Source of the DNA: Hyperthermus butylicus DSM 5456 | GTDB lineage: Archaea; Thermoproteota; Thermoprotei_A; Sulfolobales; Pyrodictiaceae | Direction of reading: 5' to 3' | Length of the DNA: 32,000 bases | Assembly: GCF_000015145.1 (NCBI RefSeq) | Contig: NC_008818.1 | Span: forward strand, 570,001-602,000 | Part shown: in pieces, positions 6,155-28,843 of the stretch | How positions within the stretch are numbered: position 1 is the stretch's first letter | Layout: each line of letters starts with the position of its first letter | Notes under the pieces: generated by a model | Database searches by the model: none | Told to the model about the DNA's origin: nothing | The model's input: only the letters and a program-made list of their open reading frames with translations | Translations under genes and position numbers: made by a program

Positions 6155-7186
6155 CTATCTGTAGAGCCAACATGCAACCCAGTGGCCGCGCTCGGCCTCG
6201 ACGAGTGGTGGCTCCTCCCTCCTACACCTTTCGCTGGCGTAGGGGCAACGTGTATGGAACCGGCATCCGGGTGGCGGGTTGATGGGGGAGGGAGGCTCGC
6301 CTACTATTCTTATCGGCTTCTTTGCCCGGGCCTTGGCGGGATCAGGTATGGGTATGGAGGCTAGTAGCATCTTGGTGTAGGGATGTAGCGGTTTTTCAAA
6401 CACCTCCTCTGCAGGGCCGAGCTCGACTATCTTGCCCAGGTACATGACTGCTATGTAATCGCTCATGTACCTCACGACGCCGAGATCGTGGCTTATGAAG
6501 AGGTATGTCAGTTTCCTCTTTGCCTGCAACTCTTTTAGGAGGTTTAGTATCTGAGCCTGCACCGATACGTCGAGAGCGCTTGTGGGCTCGTCAAGCACCA
6601 TGAACTCAGGGTTTACCGCGAGAGCCCTTGCGATAGCTATTCTCTGCCTCTGCCCGCCGCTAAACTCGTGGGGGTAACGGTAGACGTGGGTCTCGTTGAG
6701 CCCAACCTCCTCTAGTAGCTTCACAATGTATGCGTAGGGGTCTCCAACCTCTACCCGGTGGACCTTCAATGCCTCCATGATTATGTCGTAAACGGTCATC
6801 CTTGGGTTGAGGCTGCTATATGGGTCCTGGAATATCATCTGCGCCTTCTTCCGGAATGCTTTAAGCTCCTTACCTCTCAGCTCGAAGACGTTCCGTCCAT
6901 CAAAGAACACGTAGCCACTTGTCGGCTCTATGAGGCGTAGAATAAGCCTACCAATAGTCGTCTTGCCGCTGCCGCTCTCCCCTACAAGCCCAATGGTCTT
7001 GCCGCGTGGAATAATGAACGAGACATCATCTACGGCCTTGACCCAGCCACTAACCCTGATGAACCCCCTTACAGGGAAGTACTTCTTAAGCCTATAGACA
7101 AGTACGTGGGGTTCCTCGCCTGGAAACATTCTTGCAAGGCTGTTGACAGCTTCTCTGTATACCTCCCCACTATTGCCGCGAGCCAC
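6155..7186 (-). CDS. Peptide (Dpp/Opp-type) ABC transporter ATP-binding protein, DppF/OppF-like
   Basis: Walker [10 protein letters not shown], signature [15 protein letters not shown], Walker [12 protein letters not shown], and a C-terminal oligopeptide-transporter extension with four Cys (CRFHTRC...C...C). GTG start. Confidence 0.9.
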
Positions 7187-7281
7187 CTATACGGCACCTC
7201 ACACGGCTTAGAGACTCAAGTTGGGGGGCCCGGCACAGCCTTATATACATCATACAACCCGAAGGCTTAGCGTAAATAAAA

Positions 7282-8319
7282 TCAATGGATAAGCCTGGCT
7301 GGGTTGGGATGTTTGTCTATGTATCTCCAGCAGGCTACGCGGTGCCTCTCGTTAACCCATATCTCCGGCGGCCTATCCTGACGACAGATCTCTGCCATGT
7401 AGGGACATCGTGGATGGAATCTGCAGCCCGGCGGCGGGTGAATGAGGTTGGGCACAGTGCCCGGTATTGATTCCAGCTTCTCTATCTTCTTCGTGGGGTC
7501 CGGTACCGCCCTTAGGAGGAGCTGAGTGTAAGGGTGCAGAGGGTTGCTGAACAGCTCCTCTGTGGGTGCCTCCTCTACTATGATGCCAGCATACATTACT
7601 GCAACTCGGTCGCACATCTCTGCTACGAGGCCCATGTTGTGTGTGATGAGTAGCAGGGTTAGACCCTCCCTCCTCTTGAGCTCGCGTAGCAGCTCCATTA
7701 TCTGAGCTTGAATAGTCACGTCTAGCGCTGTCGTAGGTTCATCGGCTATTATTAGCTTGGGATTGTTTGCAAGGCTCATGCTTATCACTGCTCTCTGCTT
7801 CATCCCGCCGCTCAGCTCGTGGGGGTAAGACTTCACCCTCCTCTCCGGGTCTGGTATCAACGTCTTCTTCAAGAGCTCCACGGCCCTTGTGAAGCCCTCC
7901 TTTATCTTCTTTATCATGTCATGTACAAGCATGGTCTCCGAGATCTGGTAGCCAATAGTGTATAGTGGGTCTAGCGCTGAGCCTGGATCCTGGAAGATGT
8001 ATGCTATCTCAGCACCCCTTATGCGGCGTAGCTCCTCCTCACTCAGCCTCATAATGTCTATCCTCTTGCCCGGCTCTGGGTAGTAGTATATCTCGCCCTT
8101 CTCAATCCTACCAGGAGGTTGTATGAGCCTCGTTAGCGCCCTAGAGGTTACACTCTTGCCGCAGCCGGTCTCGCCAACCAGGCAGTACGTCTCGCCCCTC
8201 TCTATGCAGAAGCTTACACCGTAGATCGCCTTGACTACGCCGGCATACGTGTAGAAGTTGACGTACAGGTCGCGAACCTCGACTATGGGGTCCCGGCAGC
8301 GAAGCATACCGCCACCCAT
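7282..8319 (-). CDS. Peptide (Dpp/Opp-type) ABC transporter ATP-binding protein, DppD/OppD-like
   Basis: Walker A GETGCGKSV, signature LSGGMKQRAVISMSL, Walker B IIADEPTTALD, and a C-terminal four-Cys extension. The ATG at 8319 sits 1 nt after the TGA (8321-8323) of the upstream permease. The track ORF extends further to 8361. Confidence 0.9.
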   Translation of the reverse strand: MGGGMLRCRDPIVEVRDLYVNFYTYAGVVKAIYGVSFCIERGETYCLVGETGCGKSVTSRALTRLIQPPGRIEKGEIYYYPEPGKRIDIMRLSEEELRRIRGAEIAYIFQDPGSALDPLYTIGYQISETMLVHDMIKKIKEGFTRAVELLKKTLIPDPERRVKSYPHELSGGMKQRAVISMSLANNPKLIIADEPTTALDVTIQAQIMELLRELKRREGLTLLLITHNMGLVAEMCDRVAVMYAGIIVEEAPTEELFSNPLHPYTQLLLRAVPDPTKKIEKLESIPGTVPNLIHPPPGCRFHPRCPYMAEICRQDRPPEIWVNERHRVACWRYIDKHPNPARLIH

Positions 8320-8320
8320 T

Positions 8321-9532
8321 TCACTCGCCACCCCCACCAGCTGCCTCTTCCTCAGCCTCAACCACCTTCTTCACCTTGAACTCTATGCTCCTCCTAGTCC
8401 TAGGGTCTAGTATGTCTCTCAGAGCGTCGCCGAGCAAGTTGAAGCCGAAGACTGTGAGGAATATCATTAAGCCTGGCCAGAATATTAGCCACCAAGCTCG
8501 GGGGAAGTACTGGGCTCCGTCGAATATTATCCTGCCCCAGTCAGCTAGCGGCGGGACAACACCTAGGCCTAGGTAGCTTAGTCCAGCCTCCGTGAGTATA
8601 ACACCACCCATGTCCATCGTTACGTATACTAGTACAGGGCCAATCATGTTTGGCAATATGTGGCGGAACATTATGCCTAGAGTGGAGACGCCTAGAGCCC
8701 TTGCAGCCTCAACGTAAGTGTTCTCCCTTACACTAAGCACCATGCCGCGCACGAGCCTCGTATAGGATGGCCACCATACCATCCAGAGTGCAATTATTAC
8801 AGATGCCAGGCTGGCAAGTGCGGGCTCATGCTCAGGCTTGACAGCGAATAGGTAGCGTAAGATGGTAGCAATGTTCGGGTACTGCTCGAAGACCCCTTGC
8901 AGCGCGTAGGGTAGCGTTGCTGAGAAGGCTATAGCTAGTATTAGCCCTGGGAACGCGAGGAATATATCGGTAATCCTCATTATAACCTCGTCAACAGCGC
9001 CGCCATAGTAGCCTGCAACGAGCCCCAACAGTATACCTATGGTTGCGCCTACGCTAACTACAAGTATTGCGACGACAAGACTTGTACGTGCACCATAGAG
9101 TATCCTGCTGTAAAGGTCTCTACCAAAGTTATCCGAGCCAAGTATGAATGTGAAGTTGCCGGGCTCCAGCCCTACCCTACGACAGTATGTGCTATTTCGT
9201 ATCTCGATAGTTGTACCTGGAGGCGCTAGCTTGGATTCAAACTCGCCAGGCTTCTTGGTCTTCTCGCAGAAGATAAACTGGGTATCGTAGCTTACCGGGG
9301 CGATGTATGGCCCAATGATTGCAAGTATTACAAATGCAGCTACCAGCACGAGGCCAGTAAGGCCTAGAGGTGAACGGTTGAGCGTGTATAGCATTAGCTT
9401 CCACTCCTCGAGCCGGCCCTGGTTCTTCAGCTTCCAGCCAGGCCTAACACGGTCTATGACTATTGCAAGCCCATCAACCAGCTTGTCAGCAAGCCTATCG
9501 AGGATCTTCTTCTCGTACACGTACTCGGGCAT
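8321..9532 (-). CDS. Peptide ABC transporter permease, DppC/OppC-like
   Basis: 403-aa polytopic membrane protein with the EAA-loop region YVEAARALGVSTLGIMFRHILPN. It has a long N-terminal extension and a long extracytoplasmic loop after TM1. Confidence 0.9.
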   Translation of the reverse strand: MPEYVYEKKILDRLADKLVDGLAIVIDRVRPGWKLKNQGRLEEWKLMLYTLNRSPLGLTGLVLVAAFVILAIIGPYIAPVSYDTQFIFCEKTKKPGEFESKLAPPGTTIEIRNSTYCRRVGLEPGNFTFILGSDNFGRDLYSRILYGARTSLVVAILVVSVGATIGILLGLVAGYYGGAVDEVIMRITDIFLAFPGLILAIAFSATLPYALQGVFEQYPNIATILRYLFAVKPEHEPALASLASVIIALWMVWWPSYTRLVRGMVLSVRENTYVEAARALGVSTLGIMFRHILPNMIGPVLVYVTMDMGGVILTEAGLSYLGLGVVPPLADWGRIIFDGAQYFPRAWWLIFWPGLMIFLTVFGFNLLGDALRDILDPRTRRSIEFKVKKVVEAEEEAAGGGGE

Positions 9533-9538
9533 GTGTAT

Positions 9539-9546
9539 TCACCTCC
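9539..9546 (-). promoter_or_regulatory. Shine-Dalgarno sequence for the DppC-like gene
   Basis: The minus strand reads GGAGGTGA 6 nt upstream of the ATG at 9532 and immediately after the TAG (9549-9551) of the preceding permease gene. Confidence 0.6.
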
Positions 9547-9548
9547 CT

Positions 9549-10562
9549 CTAGTATCTCACCCTGGGGTCTATGATGGCGTAAAGTATGTCTATGATCAAG
9601 TTTATAGTCACGTATATCAGTGCTATGAATAGCACAGCTGCTATCAACACTATGTAGTCGAAGTTGTGTATCGCCCTGATCATGTACGTGCCAAGCCCCG
9701 GCAGGTTAAAGACGGTCTCAGTAATCGGCGCGCCCGCCAGGAGCCCGCCAAACATTAAGCCCAGAACTGTAACAACGGGGGTTAGCGCGTTTCGGAGCAC
9801 GTGAATGTAGATTCTACCACGGGGAAAGCCACGGGCTTCCATGAAGTTTATGTATTCTCCGCTAAACGCGTCGAGGAAGCTATTCCGCACGATCCTTGTT
9901 ATAAAGCCTATGCCGCCGTAGGCGAGCATGAATGCCGGCAGCCACATTCTTTTGATAAACAATACTATGTACTCGATGTCCATCTTTAGGAAGGCATCTA
10001 GTATCGGTATGCCGGTAATCCTATAGTCTGGCATTGGGAATCCTGTAAGGCTTATGAGGCCGCGTGGCTGCAGCACGAAAATTAGAAGGTAGGCTAGCCA
10101 GAAGATTGGCGTCGATATTCCGATGAGGGCGAAAGCTCTTATCACAACATCAATCCACGTATCCCTTTTGATGGCGGCTATTATGCCTAGAGGTATACCG
10201 ATAGTTATTATGAATAGGAATGCGAATAGTGTTAGAGGCAGCGTAACCGTCAGCAGCTTCTCCATAATCTGATCCCAGACATTTGTGTGCGTCACAGGGC
10301 TCACAGCCTCACCACTCAGCACCTTCTTGAGAAAGAAGTAGTATTGTACATACCAGGGGTCGTTGAGGTGGTACTCCTCGATAAGCCTCTGGACAACCTC
10401 GGGGTCAGCCTTCTCGCCGCCAGCCCATAGCCTAGCTGGATTAGCTGGTATCTGTACAGCAATAATGTAGACGAGGAATGTAACACCTATCACTGTTGGC
10501 ACGAACGTTATGAGTCTGCGGAGTAGGAAGCGGCGTAGATTGGCCAATTCCCTAACCCCCAT
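9549..10562 (-). CDS. Peptide ABC transporter permease, DppB/OppB-like
   Basis: 337-aa polytopic membrane protein with the family N-terminus RFLLRRLITFVPTVIGVTFLVY and EAA-loop region NFMEARGFPRGRIYIHVLRNAL. It is the first gene of the minus-strand operon. Confidence 0.9.
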   Translation of the reverse strand: MGVRELANLRRFLLRRLITFVPTVIGVTFLVYIIAVQIPANPARLWAGGEKADPEVVQRLIEEYHLNDPWYVQYYFFLKKVLSGEAVSPVTHTNVWDQIMEKLLTVTLPLTLFAFLFIITIGIPLGIIAAIKRDTWIDVVIRAFALIGISTPIFWLAYLLIFVLQPRGLISLTGFPMPDYRITGIPILDAFLKMDIEYIVLFIKRMWLPAFMLAYGGIGFITRIVRNSFLDAFSGEYINFMEARGFPRGRIYIHVLRNALTPVVTVLGLMFGGLLAGAPITETVFNLPGLGTYMIRAIHNFDYIVLIAAVLFIALIYVTINLIIDILYAIIDPRVRY

Positions 10563-10656: not shown

Positions 10657-10686
10657 TATTCAAAAATACTATTCAAAAATACTATT
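10657..10686. repeat. Tandem 13-bp direct repeat (2 perfect copies plus 4 bp) in the divergent dpp promoter region; candidate operator
   Basis: TATTCAAAAATAC occurs at 10657-10669 and again at 10670-10682, followed by TATT. Copy 1 plus the preceding G forms GTATT-CAAA-AATAC. A nearby palindrome GTATATATAC (10708-10717) and a GAATAC (10724-10729) are also present. Confidence 0.6.
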
Positions 10687-10873
10687 TAGCTTGTATCTAA
10701 TTACAAAGTATATATACATTATTGAATACACGTAAAATATACAACGTTCCCACTCTAGAACCCTTCAACTACTGCCTGGAGCCATCAATTCCGCTTGCTT
10801 CGCCATAACTTCCTCCGACGTCTATACATCTGAGCACAGGGTAAAGCATAGTCAAATCCCACGCTTGCACAAC

Positions 10874-10890
10874 AATAAAAGCTTTTTAAA
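10874..10890 (+). promoter_or_regulatory. Candidate BRE/TATA promoter for the binding-protein gene
   Basis: aataaaagcTTTTTAAA, with the TATA-like TTTTTAAA at 10883-10890, lies about 55 nt upstream of the GTG at 10945. This implies a leader of about 30 nt containing GGGTGG. Confidence 0.4.
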
Positions 10891-10944
10891 GGGGCCAAGG
10901 GGTAGGCTAGAACCCGATAGAATAGGTAGCCCGTAGACATATGG

Positions 10945-13164
10945 GTGGGAGTTGTGGCGAGTCGTGCGGCTTTAATAGCTGGTATTGTTGTGCTTGTTGT
11001 TATTGTTGCTGGTATTGCGGTCTACTTTGCCTCCAAGCCTGAGGAGAAGCCTGCAGCACCAACCGAACAGCCAACAGAACAACCAACAACAACACCAACA
11101 GAAGAAAAGCCTGCTGAAGAGCAACCGGTACAGGCGGCAAAGCCTCAGCTTCCACCCGAGGTCAAGGTTATAGAGGTTAGCAAGGCTGTAATCGCTGTTG
11201 CACCAAAGGATGTAGCTGTCGAGGACATAGTTAACGCGATTGATACTAAGGGCAAGAAGCTGATAATTGTCCGCTACGAGGTTGATGAGGAGAACACTAA
11301 GCCGGTAGAAGAAAGTGTAGGCTTCTCCGACATAAACCCAGCATTCTATAGGAACACAACGATAGACGCACTAATCATAGCTGCGAGAAAGGAGACCAAC
11401 CCCGAGATACGTGAAATGCTCTATGAAGCTGTCTACAAGCTGAGCAACTACGAGGTACCAATACTCTGGCTTGGCCAGTATATGCTTGTGCGTAGTCAGT
11501 GGAGCTGGGTGCACGGCCGCTACTATCACCCAACACTAGCTGAGCGCTACGACTTGCTATGGGAGGATCCAGCTGCGCCTGTGAAGAACCTGGAGTTTGG
11601 TGGCTACAAGAATGACCCCTCAACATACGTGATAGCAACTATAGGCTGGCCTGACACCTTCGACCCAGCAGCAGACTATGAGACCTTCGGCTGGGCGATA
11701 TTCCACAACATTGGTGACACTCTAGTAACCTACTGGAAGGATGATACTAAGGAGGTTATACCAGACCTAGCTGTTGCATGGGTACACGATAAGGAAGGTA
11801 CAACCTGGTACTTCGTGATACGTGGCGGTGTAAAGGCCTACGATCCATGGCACAACAAGGTCTACGATATAAGTGCTGTAGACGTGTTATTCACAATATG
11901 GCGTGTAGCGAGGCTAGGCCTAGACCCGAGCTGGATGGTTACAGAGTTCATTGACGTAAACAACTCCAAGGTGCTAACTGAGGAGGAGTTCGACCAGATA
12001 CTAGCCCAGGGCGGCCTCTATGCAGACTACAAGGGCCAGACGATAGAGCCTAAGAGCTTGAAGGAGCTGCTAGAATTCTTCGGCTACGATGGTGAGACTG
12101 CTGGTGTTGTAATGCTCAAGCTATACATGCCGTACAGCCCGATACTCAGCATACTCAGCGACCCATTCCTAATAGTCATCCCGATGAAGTACTTGTTTGA
12201 CAATGTCGACGAGTTGAAGGGCAAATATGAGGAGGCCCTGGAGGCAAGCCAGTACGGCAAGAACCCGGCAGCGTGGGCCAACTATATAGGCACGGGTGAG
12301 CAGGAGCCGACGCACCTCTACCTCCACAAATACCCCATTGGCACCGGGCCATACTATGTTGCCGAGTACAAGGAGGATAGCTACATAGTGCTAAAGTACA
12401 ACCCATACTACTGGAACAAGAGCCTATGGTACATGGAGCCCTATGGTAAGGATGGTGTGCCAAGCCACCAGACAGTAATCTACCTTATAGCCAACGACCA
12501 CGTAACAAGGCTGCAGATCTACAAGGCTGGCCAGGCCGACACAGCAGTTGTGCCGCTCGATAGGCTTGACGAAGTTAGAGACTACAAGCTGCAGGACAAC
12601 CCACAGTTCAAGATAGAGGTGGAGACTGGCGGACTAGAGCCAGCGATAGTCTACATAGTGCTCAACGCTAACAAGGAGCCATTCAACAATAGGCTTGTAA
12701 GGCAGGCGTTAATGTATGCTATACCATTCGACCAGATCAAGGAGGTGGTATACTCCGGGTTCCTTGAGAGGCTATATGGTGTCATACCTGCAGGCTTCCC
12801 AGGCCACAACGATGACATAGTGATAAAGTACACGTTCGACCTAGACAAGGCTATGGAGCTGATACAGAAGAGCGGTATAGACCCAACCAAGTATAACATC
12901 GAGATCTGGTACAACGAGGGTAACGCACAGCGCGAACAGATAGCCACCCTGCTACAGCAGACATGGGGCCAGCTAGGCTTCAAGGTTGGCGTAAAGGCGC
13001 TCAACTGGCCAACGCTACTATCAAAGACCGAGAAGGGCGACTTCGACGTATACATCATCGGCTGGGCGCCAGACTACCTAGACCCAGACAACTATGCAGG
13101 CCCACTATTCTACGGTGGTACCAGGTTCAGCTTCCTAGAGGTAGTAGTACCAGAGCAAGGCTAA
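10945..13164 (+). CDS. Family-5 (DppA/OppA-type) solute-binding protein, N-terminally membrane-anchored, apparently circularly permuted
   Basis: 739-aa ORF with a GTG start (alternative GTG at 10954). The order of elements is an N-terminal TM helix, a Pro/Thr/Glu linker, the family-5 body (TYVIATIGWPDTFDPAADYE..., LAVAWVHDKEGTTWYFVIRGGVKAYD) and a C-terminal GWAPDYLDPDNY. See the finding on permutation. Confidence 0.9.
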   Translation: MGVVASRAALIAGIVVLVVIVAGIAVYFASKPEEKPAAPTEQPTEQPTTTPTEEKPAEEQPVQAAKPQLPPEVKVIEVSKAVIAVAPKDVAVEDIVNAIDTKGKKLIIVRYEVDEENTKPVEESVGFSDINPAFYRNTTIDALIIAARKETNPEIREMLYEAVYKLSNYEVPILWLGQYMLVRSQWSWVHGRYYHPTLAERYDLLWEDPAAPVKNLEFGGYKNDPSTYVIATIGWPDTFDPAADYETFGWAIFHNIGDTLVTYWKDDTKEVIPDLAVAWVHDKEGTTWYFVIRGGVKAYDPWHNKVYDISAVDVLFTIWRVARLGLDPSWMVTEFIDVNNSKVLTEEEFDQILAQGGLYADYKGQTIEPKSLKELLEFFGYDGETAGVVMLKLYMPYSPILSILSDPFLIVIPMKYLFDNVDELKGKYEEALEASQYGKNPAAWANYIGTGEQEPTHLYLHKYPIGTGPYYVAEYKEDSYIVLKYNPYYWNKSLWYMEPYGKDGVPSHQTVIYLIANDHVTRLQIYKAGQADTAVVPLDRLDEVRDYKLQDNPQFKIEVETGGLEPAIVYIVLNANKEPFNNRLVRQALMYAIPFDQIKEVVYSGFLERLYGVIPAGFPGHNDDIVIKYTFDLDKAMELIQKSGIDPTKYNIEIWYNEGNAQREQIATLLQQTWGQLGFKVGVKALNWPTLLSKTEKGDFDVYIIGWAPDYLDPDNYAGPLFYGGTRFSFLEVVVPEQG
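11059..11106 (+). repeat. Four imperfect tandem 12-bp repeats encoding PTEQ-PTEQ-PTTT-PTEE (linker)
   Basis: CCAACCGAACAG / CCAACAGAACAA / CCAACAACAACA / CCAACAGAAGAA, in frame within the binding-protein gene directly after the TM anchor. Confidence 0.8.
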
Positions 13165-13207: not shown

Positions 13208-13230
13208 TTGTTTTTACGTGTTTTTCATTT
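13208..13230 (+). terminator. T-tract terminator region after the binding-protein gene
   Basis: ttgTTTTTacgtgTTTTTcaTTT lies 45-65 nt after the TAA. It is preceded by a short CCCTC/GAGGG hairpin overlapping the stop region (13165-13177). Oligo-T tracts are the established archaeal termination signal. Confidence 0.5.
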
Positions 13231-13262: not shown

Positions 13263-14147
13263 TTACTCTTGGACTGCGGGTGCTCTGCGACAAACTAGCA
13301 CGTTTGTCTGAGCCCTACGCACCACAGTCTCTGTCGTAGCTCCTATCGGTGATGTGCGGCTCAAACCTGGGCCGACAATGATTAGTGCAGCGTCTAGCCT
13401 TGCTGCCTCCTCTATTATCCGTTTACCGGGCTTCCCTTCGAGGAGTCTAGTGTTCACAGCTAGGCCACGGTGTCTCGCTTTCTCTGCAAGCTTCTCCAGC
13501 CTCTCCCTTGCGAGGATGGGGTCTTCGCCTGGCTCGAGTACATGTAGCAGTGTAAGAGGATTCCCTGTATGCTCAGCAACCTCTACCGAGCATGTATACA
13601 CGTCTTCTAGGTAGAGATTGAAGTCTATGGCTGCTACAACGGTGCCCTTGAGCGGGGGTGGCTGTACTGGCTCGCCGTCCGGGCTCCTCCGTATCCTTGC
13701 TATGAGCAGAGGTTTACGTGACGCGTGGAGTACCTCCTCGACAACACTGCCCAGTAGCAGTTCGCGGAGGAGGCCATGGCCTCGGGAGCCTAGCACTATG
13801 TAGTCCGCGCCGTATGCCTCGGAGGCTCTCACTATCCATCCAGCTGGGTTGCCAATCTTGGGCCTCGGCACCTCCACCTCAAACCCGTAGCGCTCCAGCA
13901 TGCTTGCATACTCTGCAAGTTTCCCCAACGCCTTCCTCCTCTGCTCCTCAACAACCTTGTCAACAGACACTATCCCAGCCAAAAGTTCTGCCACAATGTG
14001 CTCTGGCACGACATGGAGAAGTATAAGTGTTGTTGTGCCGAGGAGTCTCAGGTTTGGAAGCCACTCTACAAGCACGTCAGACGATGGAGACATGTCTAGA
14101 CCAACGAGCGCTGTAGCAAACCTCCATCCAGAATCCCTTATCTGCAT
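13263..14147 (-). CDS. Tandem universal stress protein (UspA) domain protein
   Basis: 294-aa ORF with two USP-like halves. Each half ends in the ATP-binding-type motif context: YIVLGSRGHGLLRELLLGSVVEEVLHASRKPLLIA and LIIVGPGLSRTSPIGATTETVVRRAQTNVLVCR. Confidence 0.85.
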   Translation of the reverse strand: MQIRDSGWRFATALVGLDMSPSSDVLVEWLPNLRLLGTTTLILLHVVPEHIVAELLAGIVSVDKVVEEQRRKALGKLAEYASMLERYGFEVEVPRPKIGNPAGWIVRASEAYGADYIVLGSRGHGLLRELLLGSVVEEVLHASRKPLLIARIRRSPDGEPVQPPPLKGTVVAAIDFNLYLEDVYTCSVEVAEHTGNPLTLLHVLEPGEDPILARERLEKLAEKARHRGLAVNTRLLEGKPGKRIIEEAARLDAALIIVGPGLSRTSPIGATTETVVRRAQTNVLVCRRAPAVQE

Positions 14148-15515: not shown

Positions 15516-17657
15516 TCACGGGCTCCGACGTTGAGTCCTACTCCTCCTGCACCCAATTAATGCTTTGAGTGCTTCCCGCAGGAGCGCTTGTGCTTCTTCT
15601 ACGCTGGCTCCCAGGATTTCCGCTGTTTCACCGATCGGTTTTCCTTGAAGTATTCTCGCCACGAGCGCTACTAGGCTGCGGTCATCTAGTCTGTCTTCGC
15701 AGCCTGCCAGTAGGGCTGATGCCGTGGCTAGGTATGCGGAGTCTATTACCTGCTCTAGCTCGACCACTCCCTCCATATAGGTGTTGAGCGCCTTGTGGTC
15801 CAGCTGTTCGAGTACTATCGGCGCATCGTGGAGGGGCTGGGTAGCCCTCAGGAGTATAGCCGTCTTTTCTGCTGCTAGGTCGCGGTAGGTGCTATGTGCA
15901 CCTAGAACTAGCTTCCTCCGTGCCCTCCTGGAGGCGTTCGTGAGCACCTCTGCACCCTTGGGGGTTAGGGGCTTTGCGAAGCCGAGGTTCTTCTCGCCCG
16001 TAGCCTTGTTGTAGCGGGGGCTCACGTAGAACAGTGTGTAGCCGGTCTTAACCCAGAACCCTATGACGTCGTGGCGGCCAAACAGTGCGGCAACAATGTC
16101 TACTCCTTTGCCGCGGGCCCAGTCCTCGACAGCGCTTAGCAGCTTCCTGCCAAGGCCGCGGCGCTGCAGCTCGGGGTGGACGGCTATCCTCACGATCCTG
16201 GCAGCCTTCAGCTCCTTTGCCGCACTGTCTGCTTGGAGCCACAGAATCTTAAGAGCGATCCTCGCGGGCTCCTCTAGCCCCCACTCCTCCAGTGCCACAT
16301 CGGCCGCAGCTGCTAGACTGCCACCGCAGACTAGGGCGTGAAGTATGTGGTTTCGGGACTCGAGGATGACGAGGAGGTAGTCGGGCTCCGTGCGATAGTG
16401 AGCTAGCGCTAGGAGTTGGACTAGCCTCCTAACAGCCTCCGGCTGCTCGGCGAGGCTGCGGGGCTCTAGCTGCTCAACCCTGCACTCATCAACACTGGCT
16501 GGAGCTGGGTAGTCGGGCTCGGGCTTTAGCACGAACACCCTGTTAACCCAGTCCTCGAGGGGGTCCCCGGGCGGGTAGCGTATCGGCTCACGTAGCTCAA
16601 CCCTCTCAAGGGGCTTGGGGAGCACATCCTCGACCATGTGTTGGAACACTCTGCCGCTACCCTCGTAGCCGTGTATCGTTGTTGCAGCCAGCACTCTGCC
16701 GCTCTTCCAGGCTAGTCTACGGAGCCTTGCAACTCCCACGGCGGCGGCCTCGTCGACTACAAGGAGTCCGGTTGGCTTAGCATCGTCGGGAGCTGCGTAG
16801 GCTATACGACCCCAGGGCCCCGTAACAGCTACGACATCGCCGCCGACTCGGCGGATGCGGTAACGTAGGCCTAGGACTCGCAGGCCGCGAATGAGTCCCT
16901 TGTAGAAGCTCGCTAGGCTAGCAGGGCTAGGTGCGACGGCCACAGCCTCGCCAGCTGCTCCACGCTTTACGGCTAGGGCGACAGCTAGGCCTAGCAGGTA
17001 GCTCTTGCCTCTGCCCCGGTCGCCGGTTACCAGGAAGCTGCGATAGCCAGCGTCGAGGTATAGACTGAACCTGTCCAGCGCCTCTGCCTGGCTGGGCGTG
17101 GCGGCGAGCCCGAGGAGCCTCCTCGGCGCTCCAAACCTGGGCTCGTAGCCTCGGGGGCCGAGGAGCCACTCGTGGGCTCTCCCCCTGGGTGGCTGGTACG
17201 CGTACACCTCACCGGTATCAGCGTCGGCCCAGAGGAGCACTCTAGCCTCGCGCAGTGAGGAGAGGAGGTAGCGACGGTAGCCCCCCACGCCGCCACTGGG
17301 CCCTGGATTCCACTCGTGCAGCGGCGGTGCCATGATGACCAGCATTCCTCCCGAGGAAACTACTCCTGCGAGGCCTGCCACAAGGTTGGGTCGTAGCAAG
17401 CCGTCGGTAGCAATGATAACGTAGTCGGCCTCGCTGCCAAGTAGCCTCTCAAACCCGCCAGGAGAGCCGGGCCTGCAACGCCTGGGGACAGCAAGGGACT
17501 GGGGGGCCACAGCTATACAATTACCGTCCAGCACTTCAGCGGTAGTATTCAGCAGCCACTGGAGCCTATTGCTGTGAACTACAGCGAGGCCACGGTAGCC
17601 AGAGTTGCGTATCTCCACGGCGAACCTTGCAAGGCTCTCCGGGTGGCTATACTTCAT
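15516..17657 (-). CDS. tmcA: tRNA(Met) cytidine acetyltransferase TmcA (NAT10-family RNA acetyltransferase/helicase)
   Basis: 713-aa ORF with Walker A GDRGRGKSYLLG in the helicase module and the GNAT motif RIVRIAVHPELQRRGLGRKLL. The domain order is as in TmcA/NAT10. Confidence 0.9.
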   Translation of the reverse strand: MKYSHPESLARFAVEIRNSGYRGLAVVHSNRLQWLLNTTAEVLDGNCIAVAPQSLAVPRRCRPGSPGGFERLLGSEADYVIIATDGLLRPNLVAGLAGVVSSGGMLVIMAPPLHEWNPGPSGGVGGYRRYLLSSLREARVLLWADADTGEVYAYQPPRGRAHEWLLGPRGYEPRFGAPRRLLGLAATPSQAEALDRFSLYLDAGYRSFLVTGDRGRGKSYLLGLAVALAVKRGAAGEAVAVAPSPASLASFYKGLIRGLRVLGLRYRIRRVGGDVVAVTGPWGRIAYAAPDDAKPTGLLVVDEAAAVGVARLRRLAWKSGRVLAATTIHGYEGSGRVFQHMVEDVLPKPLERVELREPIRYPPGDPLEDWVNRVFVLKPEPDYPAPASVDECRVEQLEPRSLAEQPEAVRRLVQLLALAHYRTEPDYLLVILESRNHILHALVCGGSLAAAADVALEEWGLEEPARIALKILWLQADSAAKELKAARIVRIAVHPELQRRGLGRKLLSAVEDWARGKGVDIVAALFGRHDVIGFWVKTGYTLFYVSPRYNKATGEKNLGFAKPLTPKGAEVLTNASRRARRKLVLGAHSTYRDLAAEKTAILLRATQPLHDAPIVLEQLDHKALNTYMEGVVELEQVIDSAYLATASALLAGCEDRLDDRSLVALVARILQGKPIGETAEILGASVEEAQALLREALKALIGCRRSRTQRRSP

Positions 17658-28766: not shown

Positions 28767-28843
<77 letters not shown>

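What the first reader, a model, noticed from the sequence alone, without database searches (positions are those of the whole stretch)
10945..13164. Peptide-binding protein appears circularly permuted: canonical C-terminal segment of family-5 SBPs sits at the N-terminus
In canonical DppA/OppA-type (family 5) binding proteins the GW..DY.DP.N motif is followed by about 100 residues. That tail contains ...Y.N.E.D.LI..A..E.D...R..LY......I...P.I.L.........V.G.... Here the ORF stops only 23 residues after GWAPDYLDPDNY (…GGTRFSFLEVVVPEQG*), and T-tract terminators and the next gene follow immediately. A segment matching the missing tail is instead found right after the N-terminal TM anchor and linker: GFSDINPAFYRNTTIDALIIAARKETNPEIREMLYEAVYKLSNYEVPILWLGQYMLVRSQWSWVHGRYYHPTLAERYDLLWED. 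It is joined by about 20 residues to the normal N-terminal start (TYVIATIGWPDTFDPAADYETFGWAIFHNIGDTLV). The order C-tail then N-lobe then rest is the signature of a circular permutation, classically produced by tandem duplication followed by trimming. I am not aware of this being described for cluster-C binding proteins.
Basis: partly seen in the sequence, partly recalled or inferred. Interest (0 to 1): 0.7.

Follow-up and report, generated by a model that had tools for sequence, protein, structure and literature searches.

The report
Circularly permuted archaeal peptide-binding protein
This Hyperthermus butylicus peptide-transporter binding protein keeps the normal DppA/OppA fold, but its usual C-terminal tail is encoded at the front of the gene, and its archaeal relatives carry several other rotations of the same chain, so the family has been circularly permuted repeatedly.

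Summary

- **The gene.** ORF 10945-13164 (+) encodes a 739-aa protein, 100% identical to a Hyperthermus butylicus ABC substrate-binding protein.
- **The permutation.** A full-length HMM of 79 canonical-order relatives hits it in three non-collinear pieces. The HMM C-terminal tail (401-519) matches residues 95-207 (i-E 4e-12; 21 shuffled or reversed controls gave no hit). HMM 31-181 matches residues 222-421, and HMM 186-433 matches residues 455-723.
- **Not an artefact.** The order is conserved in more than 80 orthologues, including isolate genomes. AlphaFold2 folds it confidently (pLDDT 94.5) into a DppA-like structure. The gene sits divergently next to dppBCDF-type genes.
- **Wider finding.** Relatives carry other cut points: A' (about residue 100), B (about 505), C (about 650) and D (about 552 or 578). 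Head-to-tail fused double binding proteins also exist. Two pairs with different chain order are 81-84% identical and keep the same leader, so these switches are recent.
- **Corrections.** Pfam PF00496 stops at the GW..DY.DP motif and cannot test the tail. The termini lie inside a family-specific beta insertion.
- **Novelty.** No solved structure and no paper describing this was found.
- **Verdict.** A functional, membrane-tethered peptide-binding protein that is a new topological variant of a known family.

The parts
10945..13164 (+). Complete gene for the circularly permuted family-5 (cluster C) substrate-binding protein, 739 aa plus stop. It is 100% identical to a Hyperthermus butylicus ABC transporter substrate-binding protein.
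10966..11028 (+). N-terminal hydrophobic anchor, residues 8-28 (AALIAGIVVLVVIVAGIAVYF). It is either a transmembrane anchor or a class III-type signal segment.
   Evidence: Read directly from the translation. No family hit apart from weak matches to TM-region models.
11029..11163 (+). Pro/Thr/Glu-rich tether, residues 29-73.
   Evidence: The equivalent Thr-rich linkers in orthologues are not conserved in sequence.
11164..11319 (+). N-terminal part of a family-specific beta insertion, residues 74-125: two strands, a short helix and a third strand. Canonical proteins lack it. The chain termini of this permutant lie within this insertion.
   Evidence: AF2 secondary structure. Not covered by the canonical HMM. 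In type B proteins it is covalently continuous with the GW..DP..FYGGT.F strand.
11320..11568 (+). Relocated 'C-terminal tail', residues 126-208: two helices plus a long strand. It is homologous to the last ~90 residues of canonical DppA/OppA-type proteins.
   Evidence: secondary structure
11569..11622 (+). Permutation junction, residues 209-226 (PAAPVKNLEFGGYKNDPS). It joins the old C-terminus to the old N-terminus.
   Evidence: The related junction motif (K/E)DPxAP recurs in the other permuted types.
11608..13113 (+). Collinear body, residues 222-723. It corresponds to canonical HMM positions 31-438, and to DppA residues ~31-448 in 5f1q numbering. It contains PF00496 (residues 270-725) and ends in GWAPDYLDPDNY.
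13072..13074 (+). Asp710 in GWAPD. It aligns with the Asp of E. coli DppA GWTGD, which is D408 in mature numbering. From memory of the DppA structures, that residue binds the ligand alpha-amino group.
   Evidence: Alignment. The functional role is recalled, not tested.
13114..13161 (+). New C-terminus, residues 724-739, with a final beta strand (FSFLEVV). This is the other half of the opened beta insertion.
13211..13225 (+). Two T5 tracts downstream of the stop codon, a candidate archaeal terminator.
   Evidence: The bacterial-type terminator scan found nothing here.
6155..10562 (-). Divergently transcribed partner genes: DppB-like permease (9549-10562), DppC-like permease (8321-9532), and two ATPases with an oligo_HPY C-terminal domain (7282-8361 and 6155-7186).

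Best explanation
The gene encodes a functional, membrane-tethered peptide-binding protein of the DppA/OppA (family 5, cluster C) type. It serves the divergently encoded DppBCDF-like ABC importer. Its chain is a natural circular permutation of the canonical order.

- The canonical C-terminal tail (two helices plus the strand that returns to the N-lobe) is encoded first.
- That tail is fused through an 18-residue junction to the canonical N-terminus.
- The chain then ends just after the GW..DY.DP motif.
- The new termini lie in a family-specific beta insertion on the C-lobe, so the N-terminal anchor and Pro/Thr-rich linker now hang from the C-lobe.
- The three-dimensional fold, and probably the binding and docking mechanism, are unchanged.

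Shown here: the non-collinear homology, conservation of the order, a confident DppA-like model, and the operon context.

Inferred: peptide as the ligand; that the relocated segment occupies exactly the canonical tail position; and an origin by in-frame tandem duplication or fusion followed by trimming at both ends. Trimming seems to have happened repeatedly at different loops in this archaeal family.
For: 1. Canonical full-length HMMs hit the protein in rotated order. The tail hit is at i-E 6e-14 and 4e-12 with an unselected set of 79 canonical proteins; 21 shuffled or reversed controls gave nothing.
2. The permuted-family HMM maps 90 canonical proteins as N-part, middle, then tail = q131-205.
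3. A profile of the N-terminal segment alone retrieves only C-terminal tails (residues ~418-549) of solved family-5 proteins as its seven best PDB hits.
4. The AF2 model of residues 70-739 has pLDDT 94.5 and pTM 0.90. Foldseek's top hits are DppA, HbpA, AapF and OppA, with ~500-530 aligned columns.
5. Type B relatives run from q506 through q735 straight into q74 and on to q501. They therefore contain the canonical GW-to-tail connection. Their AF2 model is equally confident (pLDDT 92.7), and its secondary-structure order is an exact rotation of the type A order.
6. Of the 269 homologues collected, 86 have the query's order. Sources include isolate genomes and 60 GTDB genome loci.
7. Dpp/Opp permease and ATPase genes are adjacent in the window and next to permuted relatives elsewhere.
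8. Natural fused double binding proteins exist.
9. A probable Pyrococcus furiosus orthologue, PF1408, was detected as an abundant extracellular lipoprotein (PMC3824201).
Against: - No coordinates were available, so a permutation-aware superposition (CE-CP or TM-align -cp) could not be run. The 3D equivalence of the relocated tail rests on sequence homology, secondary-structure order and Foldseek aligned lengths.
- No binding or transport data exist for this protein.
- NCBIfam's DppA equivalog cut-off is far from met (103.8 versus 1005 bits), so the ligand class is only inferred.
- The duplication-and-trimming route is a model. No intermediate was found within the query's own close lineage.
- In the recent switches the leader peptide is retained, which needs more than simple end-trimming.
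Confidence: 0.93

Rival explanations
1. The N-terminal segment (residues 74-226) is an unrelated extra domain, and the protein is a C-terminally truncated binding protein that simply lacks the canonical tail.
For: Pfam gives a single collinear PF00496 hit. The single-sequence search of the segment against PDB gave only E=0.13.
Against: PF00496 does not cover the tail at all. Profile searches in both directions place the segment on the canonical tail with E down to 6e-14, and shuffled controls are silent. Type B relatives carry the same segment directly after GW..DP, as canonical proteins do.
Confidence: 0.03
2. The arrangement is an assembly or annotation artefact, or a decaying pseudogene specific to this genome.
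For: None beyond the unusual order.
Against: The identical order occurs in 86 homologues at 50-79% identity from many independent isolates and metagenomes. The reading frame is intact. The AF2 model is confident. A probable Pyrococcus orthologue was detected by mass spectrometry.
Confidence: 0.01
3. The permuted order is real but arose by a route other than duplication and trimming. One example is excision, circularisation and re-insertion of the mature-domain coding segment behind a fixed leader. Another is recombination between differently ordered paralogues.
For: Two pairs of 81-84% identical proteins differ in chain order yet keep the same leader or lipobox. A similar junction peptide, (K/E)DPxAP, recurs in lineages that are only 35-45% identical.
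Against: Fused double binding proteins, the classical intermediates, exist in the wider family. No mobile-element or recombinase signature was looked for or seen next to the genes examined.
Confidence: 0.15

Closest known systems
E. coli / Yersinia DppA (PDB 1DPP, 1DPE, 5F1Q) and other solved family-5 (cluster C) binding proteins such as HbpA/GbpA, AapF (7KZ8) and YliB/GsiB
   Same: The same fold by Foldseek (E 1e-25, 18-22% identity). The same GW.(P/G)D..DPDN motif, including the Asp aligned with DppA D408. The same type of partner permeases and ATPases.
   Different: The chain order is rotated: the tail that follows GW..DP in DppA is encoded before the N-lobe. There is a ~70-residue beta insertion at the site of the termini, and extra insertions in the N-lobe (residues ~345-385 and 419-453). 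Attachment is by an N-terminal membrane anchor rather than a cleaved periplasmic signal. The protein scores far below the DppA equivalog cut-off.
Canonical-order relatives, apparently archaeal (e.g. P0131, P0132, P0134-P0136; 527-563 aa)
   Same: 33-38% identity over the body. The tail motif W(V/L)xGYYYNP equals the query's WVHGRYYHP. The tail alone matches at E 1e-7.
   Different: Their order is N-lobe, C-lobe, then tail, and they have no beta insertion. P0132 heads its own oppBCDF operon.
Type B/C/D permuted relatives: Pyrobaculum aerophilum, P. ferrireducens and other Pyrobaculum proteins (P0097, P0087, P0114); Thermoplasmata MAG loci L047 and L055; P0121; P0129
   Same: The same family, 46-73% identical in the aligned blocks for type B. 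They share the tail-to-N-lobe junction and the beta insertion.
   Different: The termini sit at other loops: about q505 (B), about q650 (C), and about q552 or q578 (D). Some carry C-terminal anchors as well or instead, such as the PGF-CTERM of P0133.
Other naturally circularly permuted protein families (from general knowledge: swaposins, DNA methyltransferase classes, some glycosyl hydrolases and lectins)
   Same: Homologous segments in rotated order with a conserved fold. The suggested origin is duplication or fusion followed by trimming.
   Different: Here several distinct cut points coexist within one family, including pairs more than 80% identical. The protein is a hinge-bending two-lobe receptor in which the cut changes both the tether point and the lobe connectivity.

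Membership tests
Family-5 / cluster C substrate-binding proteins (Pfam PF00496 SBP_bac_5) | Match to PF00496 above its gathering score | tested here: met
   210.6 bits against a cut-off of 32.4; residues 270-725 match HMM 1-364 of 368.
Family-5 / cluster C substrate-binding proteins (Pfam PF00496 SBP_bac_5) | Bilobed cluster C fold with the extra N-lobe subdomain | tested here: met
   AF2 model with pLDDT 94.5 and pTM 0.90. There are 171 PDB matches at E<=0.001; the best are DppA, HbpA, AapF and OppA.
Family-5 / cluster C substrate-binding proteins (Pfam PF00496 SBP_bac_5) | Canonical chain order: N-lobe, then C-lobe ending in GW..DY.DP, then a ~90-residue C-terminal tail | tested here: not met
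   The tail (HMM 431-524) aligns to residues 116-207, upstream of the N-lobe. The chain ends 22 residues after the motif.
Family-5 / cluster C substrate-binding proteins (Pfam PF00496 SBP_bac_5) | Genomic association with OppB/C-type permeases and OppD/F-type ATPases carrying oligo_HPY | tested here: met
   Four such genes lie divergently at 6155-10562.
Family-5 / cluster C substrate-binding proteins (Pfam PF00496 SBP_bac_5) | Binds peptide (or nickel/opine) ligand in the inter-lobe cleft | not testable with these tools
   Only indirect evidence: Asp710 aligns with the DppA ligand-binding Asp (the role is recalled from memory).
DppA proper (NCBIfam NF043070 equivalog) | Score at or above the curated equivalog cut-off | tested here: not met
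   103.8 bits against a cut-off of 1005. The protein is a distant relative, not a DppA orthologue.
Naturally circularly permuted homologue of a known fold | Statistically significant homologous segments in rotated (non-collinear) order | tested here: met
   Three HMM domains in rotated order, with controls. The reverse mapping holds on 90 canonical proteins.
Naturally circularly permuted homologue of a known fold | The arrangement is inherited, not an artefact | tested here: met
   86 same-order homologues, plus 60 loci in GTDB species genomes.
Naturally circularly permuted homologue of a known fold | Relocated segment superposes on the original segment in 3D (permutation-aware structural alignment) | not testable with these tools

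The most novel reading that the evidence does not exclude
Family-5 binding proteins of mostly hyperthermophilic archaea are a hotspot of recurrent, still ongoing circular permutation.

- At least six termini positions coexist: canonical, A, A', B, C and D.
- Type A itself seems to have arisen twice. The cut lies before the linker helix in Thermococcales and after it in Desulfurococcales.
- Two switches occurred between proteins that are 81-84% identical and kept the same leader.

This would imply either an unusually easy genetic route through tolerated fused double binding proteins, or selection on where the receptor is tethered and how its lobes are connected. One variant, D2, cuts at about q578, next to what I infer (from recalled DppA domain boundaries) to be the inter-lobe hinge strand.
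Probability: 0.55. Interest if true: 0.8.

Novelty: new variant of a known kind. Interest (0 to 1): 0.65.

Why it matters
Substrate-binding proteins are textbook hinge-bending receptors. They are also favoured scaffolds for biosensors, where circular permutants are usually made by hand.

A conserved natural permutant moves the membrane tether to the other lobe. Sister forms cut at other loops, including next to the hinge. Together they form a ready-made series for asking how chain connectivity and tether position affect folding at ~100 C, open/closed dynamics and docking to the permease.

The series also contains canonical forms, fused doubles, several permutants and pairs more than 80% identical. 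That makes it an unusually complete natural record of how circular permutation happens.

In practice, domain databases that model only the 'middle' of the family (PF00496) hide the rearrangement. Some orthologues are also misnamed 'DNA-binding protein'.

Tried and rejected
PF00496 gave one collinear hit. The model stops at GW..DY.DP, so it is uninformative about the tail. I replaced it with home-built full-length HMMs.
- **NCBIfam full-length models.** DppA, SapA, NikA and others aligned only up to about position 448 and did not report the tail.
- **Single-sequence search of residues 92-231 against PDB.** This gave only E=0.13. The hit was to the right region of AapF, but it was too weak alone.
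- **Misassembly, pseudogene and unrelated-domain readings.** All rejected on conservation and profile evidence.
- **An early idea of mine about type B.** I thought type B cuts at the inter-lobe hinge. Mapping to DppA numbering puts that cut inside domain I. It is the D variants (about q552 and q578) that flank what I take to be the hinge strand.
- **Literature searches.** Queries combining circular permutation with solute-, substrate- or oligopeptide-binding proteins, with SBP_bac_5, and with archaeal OppA found no description.
- **Bacterial promoter/terminator scan.** Not informative for an archaeon.
- **The GTDB scan.** It used a single peptide pattern, so the taxonomic census is partial.
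Full report
**What is there.** ORF 10945-13164 (+) encodes 739 residues. The sequence is 100% identical to an ABC transporter substrate-binding protein of Hyperthermus butylicus. Reading the translation gives these parts:
- residues 8-28: a hydrophobic anchor;
- residues 29-73: a Pro/Thr/Glu-rich linker;
- residues 74-125: a strand-rich segment;
- residues 209-226: an 18-residue connector;
- residues 227-723: a body that ends in GWAPDYLDPDNY;
- then 22 more residues and the stop codon.

Two T5 tracts and a convergent universal stress protein gene follow. Upstream, transcribed divergently, lie two Opp/Dpp-type permease genes and two ATPase genes with the oligo_HPY domain.

Pfam PF00496 gives one collinear hit (residues 270-725, HMM 1-364 of 368). 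By itself that would read as a refutation. However, PF00496 is the 'middle' model and ends at the GW..DY.DP motif, so it says nothing about the tail. Full-length NCBIfam models and PDB sequences align only up to about DppA position 448 of 535-543, which is query residue 722. That leaves about 90 canonical C-terminal positions with no partner at the query's C-terminus.

**Test of the tail homology.**
- Alone, residues 92-231 hit the C-terminal region of AapF (7KZ8, residues 417-459 of 491) at only E=0.13.
- A profile of this segment, built from 28 homologues, took as its seven best PDB hits only family-5 binding proteins. Every hit fell in the C-terminal tail (chain residues ~418-549; E 0.0017-0.06).
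- The exhaustive search of 1.84 billion representatives returned closer canonical-order relatives. Against five of them the query segment matches positions ~443-556 of 527-563 at E down to 1e-7.
- Those 54 proteins had been chosen for having a detectable tail hit, so I rebuilt the HMM from all 79 canonical-order relatives of normal length. The result held: the tail domain scored 48.5 bits, i-E 3.9e-12. Twenty shuffles and one reversal of the segment gave nothing even at E<=1000 with filters off.
- In the reverse direction, an HMM of the permuted family maps 90 canonical proteins as [q~224-337][q~455-725][q~131-205].

This is the signature of a circular permutation.

**Not an artefact, and folded.** Of the 269 homologues collected, 86 have exactly the query's order. 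They come from isolates (Pyrodictium occultum, Staphylothermus marinus, Aeropyrum pernix, Thermococcus, Pyrococcus) and from many metagenomes. A scan of GTDB species genomes found the same order in Pyrodictiaceae, Acidilobaceae, other Desulfurococcales and Thermococcus.

AlphaFold2 on residues 70-739 with 61 sequences gave pLDDT 94.5 and pTM 0.90. Foldseek's best solved matches are DppA, HbpA/GbpA, AapF and OppA at 18-22% identity with ~500-530 aligned columns. That length is what the collinear body, residues 222-723, allows. In the model the relocated segment forms helix, helix, then a long strand (q138-149, q153-169, q173-186). From memory, this is the pattern of the canonical tail.

No solved structure is closer than about 22% identity, so no member of the permuted family has been solved.

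**The wider picture.** Thirty-two homologues, from Pyrobaculum, other Thermoprotei, Desulfurococcales MAGs and one Thermococci MAG, have a second order, type B. After the leader they start at q~506. They run through GW..DP..FYGGT.F, a short linker helix and straight into q74. They then continue through the tail and the N-lobe and end at q~501 (...NPYYWN..LYGFKP).

Type B therefore keeps the canonical GW-to-tail connection and shares with the query the non-canonical tail-to-N-lobe junction. It also shows that residues 74-125 plus 724-739 of the query are two halves of one inserted beta module, which the query's termini have opened.

The type B model (P0054 with 31 sequences) is equally confident, with pLDDT 92.7 and pTM 0.90. 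Its secondary-structure elements are an exact rotation of the type A list. Its Foldseek alignments to the same PDB proteins span ~350-388 columns. That is the length of C-lobe plus insertion plus tail, and so indirect support that the tail is structurally collinear there.

More distant representatives add further cut points:

| Type | Chain starts at | Examples |
|---|---|---|
| A' | ~q100-104; the C-terminus runs on into the hairpin | P0124-P0127; Thermoprotei and Korarchaeota MAGs by source name |
| C | ~q650 | P0121 with the insertion; P0129, P0133, P0191, P0236 without it; P0133 carries PGF-CTERM |
| D1 | ~q552 | P0122; Thermoplasmata and Methanobacteriota MAG loci L047, L048, L055 |
| D2 | ~q578 | P0140, P0148, P0189, P0227 |
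| B without the insertion | ~q505 | P0174 |

Every cut falls in a loop between predicted secondary-structure elements. Each type was seen on several independent contigs.

Head-to-tail fused double or multiple binding proteins also exist. In these the first tail runs directly into the next N-lobe (P0210, 1346 aa; P0147, 4308 aa; also P0160, P0169, P0219). They are the intermediates that the duplication-and-trimming model needs.

**How recent and how often.** I re-permuted all cores to one order and built an NJ tree.
- Type B is paraphyletic.
- Thermococcales type A is nested among type B, apart from Desulfurococcales type A.
- Two type B proteins, P0113 and P0120, sit inside the Thermococcales type A clade. 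They are 81-83% identical to Thermococcales type A proteins but at most 68% to any other type B. The nearest neighbour was type A in 200 of 200 column resamplings, and in both halves separately.
- They carry the same lipobox leader (VVASGCIGG) as the type A proteins.

The Thermococcales type A cut lies before the linker helix (N-terminus ...TPAILELDKVAVIETDK). The Desulfurococcales cut lies after it (C-terminus ...SLSELRAFFSG in Aeropyrum), and the helix is lost in Hyperthermus and Pyrodictium. Type A therefore probably arose twice.

Independently, type C P0129 and canonical-order P0132 are 83-84% identical in both blocks and share the N-terminal anchor. They sit in different loci.

These comparisons rest on an NJ tree and pairwise identities, not on a supported ML phylogeny. 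The number of events, at least four by my reading, is provisional.

**How it most likely works.** The protein is an extracellular receptor held at the membrane by its N-terminal hydrophobic segment and flexible linker. It binds peptides between its lobes and delivers them to the adjacent DppBCDF-type importer.
- The alignment to DppA conserves the Asp of GW(x)xD (Asp710). From memory of the DppA structures, that residue binds the ligand alpha-amino group.
- Permuted relatives also sit next to Opp-type permease genes.
- P. furiosus PF1408, a 79.4-kDa 'putative dipeptide-binding' lipoprotein, was found abundantly in the secretome with 30 peptides and 52% coverage (PMC3824201). Its leader resembles that of the P. 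abyssi orthologue. I infer it is a type A orthologue but did not verify this.

The consequence of the permutation is topological. The tether now leaves from the C-lobe insertion instead of the N-lobe. Whether that is adaptive or neutral is unknown.

**Comparison with what is known, and novelty.** The protein is a member of the family-5 / cluster C superfamily by Pfam score, fold and operon context. It fails the family's canonical chain order. It is not a DppA orthologue (103.8 versus 1005 bits).

Seven full-text searches found no description of permuted Dpp/Opp-type binding proteins. They paired circular permutation with solute-, substrate- or oligopeptide-binding proteins, with SBP_bac_5, and with archaeal OppA. 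Papers in subscription journals are not covered, so prior mention cannot be excluded.

I rate it a new variant of a known kind. The single-gene observation is solid and moderately surprising. The family-wide recurrent permutation is the more interesting result.

**Limits.**
- No model coordinates were available, so no CE-CP-type superposition could be run.
- There are no ligand data.
- The taxonomic census from one peptide pattern is partial.
- The mechanism of the leader-preserving switches, and the recurrence of a similar junction peptide, (K/E)DPxAP, in lineages only 35-45% identical, remain unexplained.

Noticed in passing
window 10657-10682 and 10718-10729: A perfect tandem direct repeat, TATTCAAAAATAC x2, with an inverted partner 50 nt downstream. 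It lies in the 382-nt divergent intergenic region between the dppB-like gene and the binding-protein gene, and is a candidate operator for a shared regulator. A BRE/TATA-like AAAGCTTTTTAAAGG lies at ~10879-10893, upstream of the start codon.
   Followed up: no
homologues P0006, P0075, P0092, P0106, P0108: NCBI names several orthologues of this binding protein 'DNA-binding protein' (Pyrodictium occultum and several Thermococcus). Given the PF00496 match and the operon context, this looks like a propagated annotation error.
   Followed up: no
P0147 (4308 aa), P0210 (1346 aa), P0160, P0169, P0219: Giant or double proteins containing two or more complete family-5 binding-protein units fused head to tail. 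P0147 was seen on four contigs.
   Followed up: partly
P0129 (L002 8001-9749) versus P0132 (L063 8001-9692): A type C permutant and a canonical-order protein are 83-84% identical and share the N-terminal anchor. They occupy different loci. P0132 heads its own oppBCDF operon. P0129 is a second binding-protein gene lying divergent to another opp operon.
   Followed up: partly
junctions in query residues 205-226, P0174, P0129, P0133: The peptide joining the old C-terminus to the old N-terminus is similar across lineages that are only 35-45% identical: WEDPAAP..., YKDPAAPNPDTF, YKDPNATNPDTF, WKTSDANQPDTF. Whether this reflects a common origin of the junction, gene conversion or convergence is unexplained.
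   Followed up: no
window 15516-17657 (-), 13263-14147 (-), 28767-28843 (-): Neighbouring genes: a TmcA/NAT10-type RNA cytidine acetyltransferase, a tandem-domain universal stress protein, and tRNA-Ala(GGC). The tRNA is the only Rfam or ARAGORN hit in the window.
   Followed up: no
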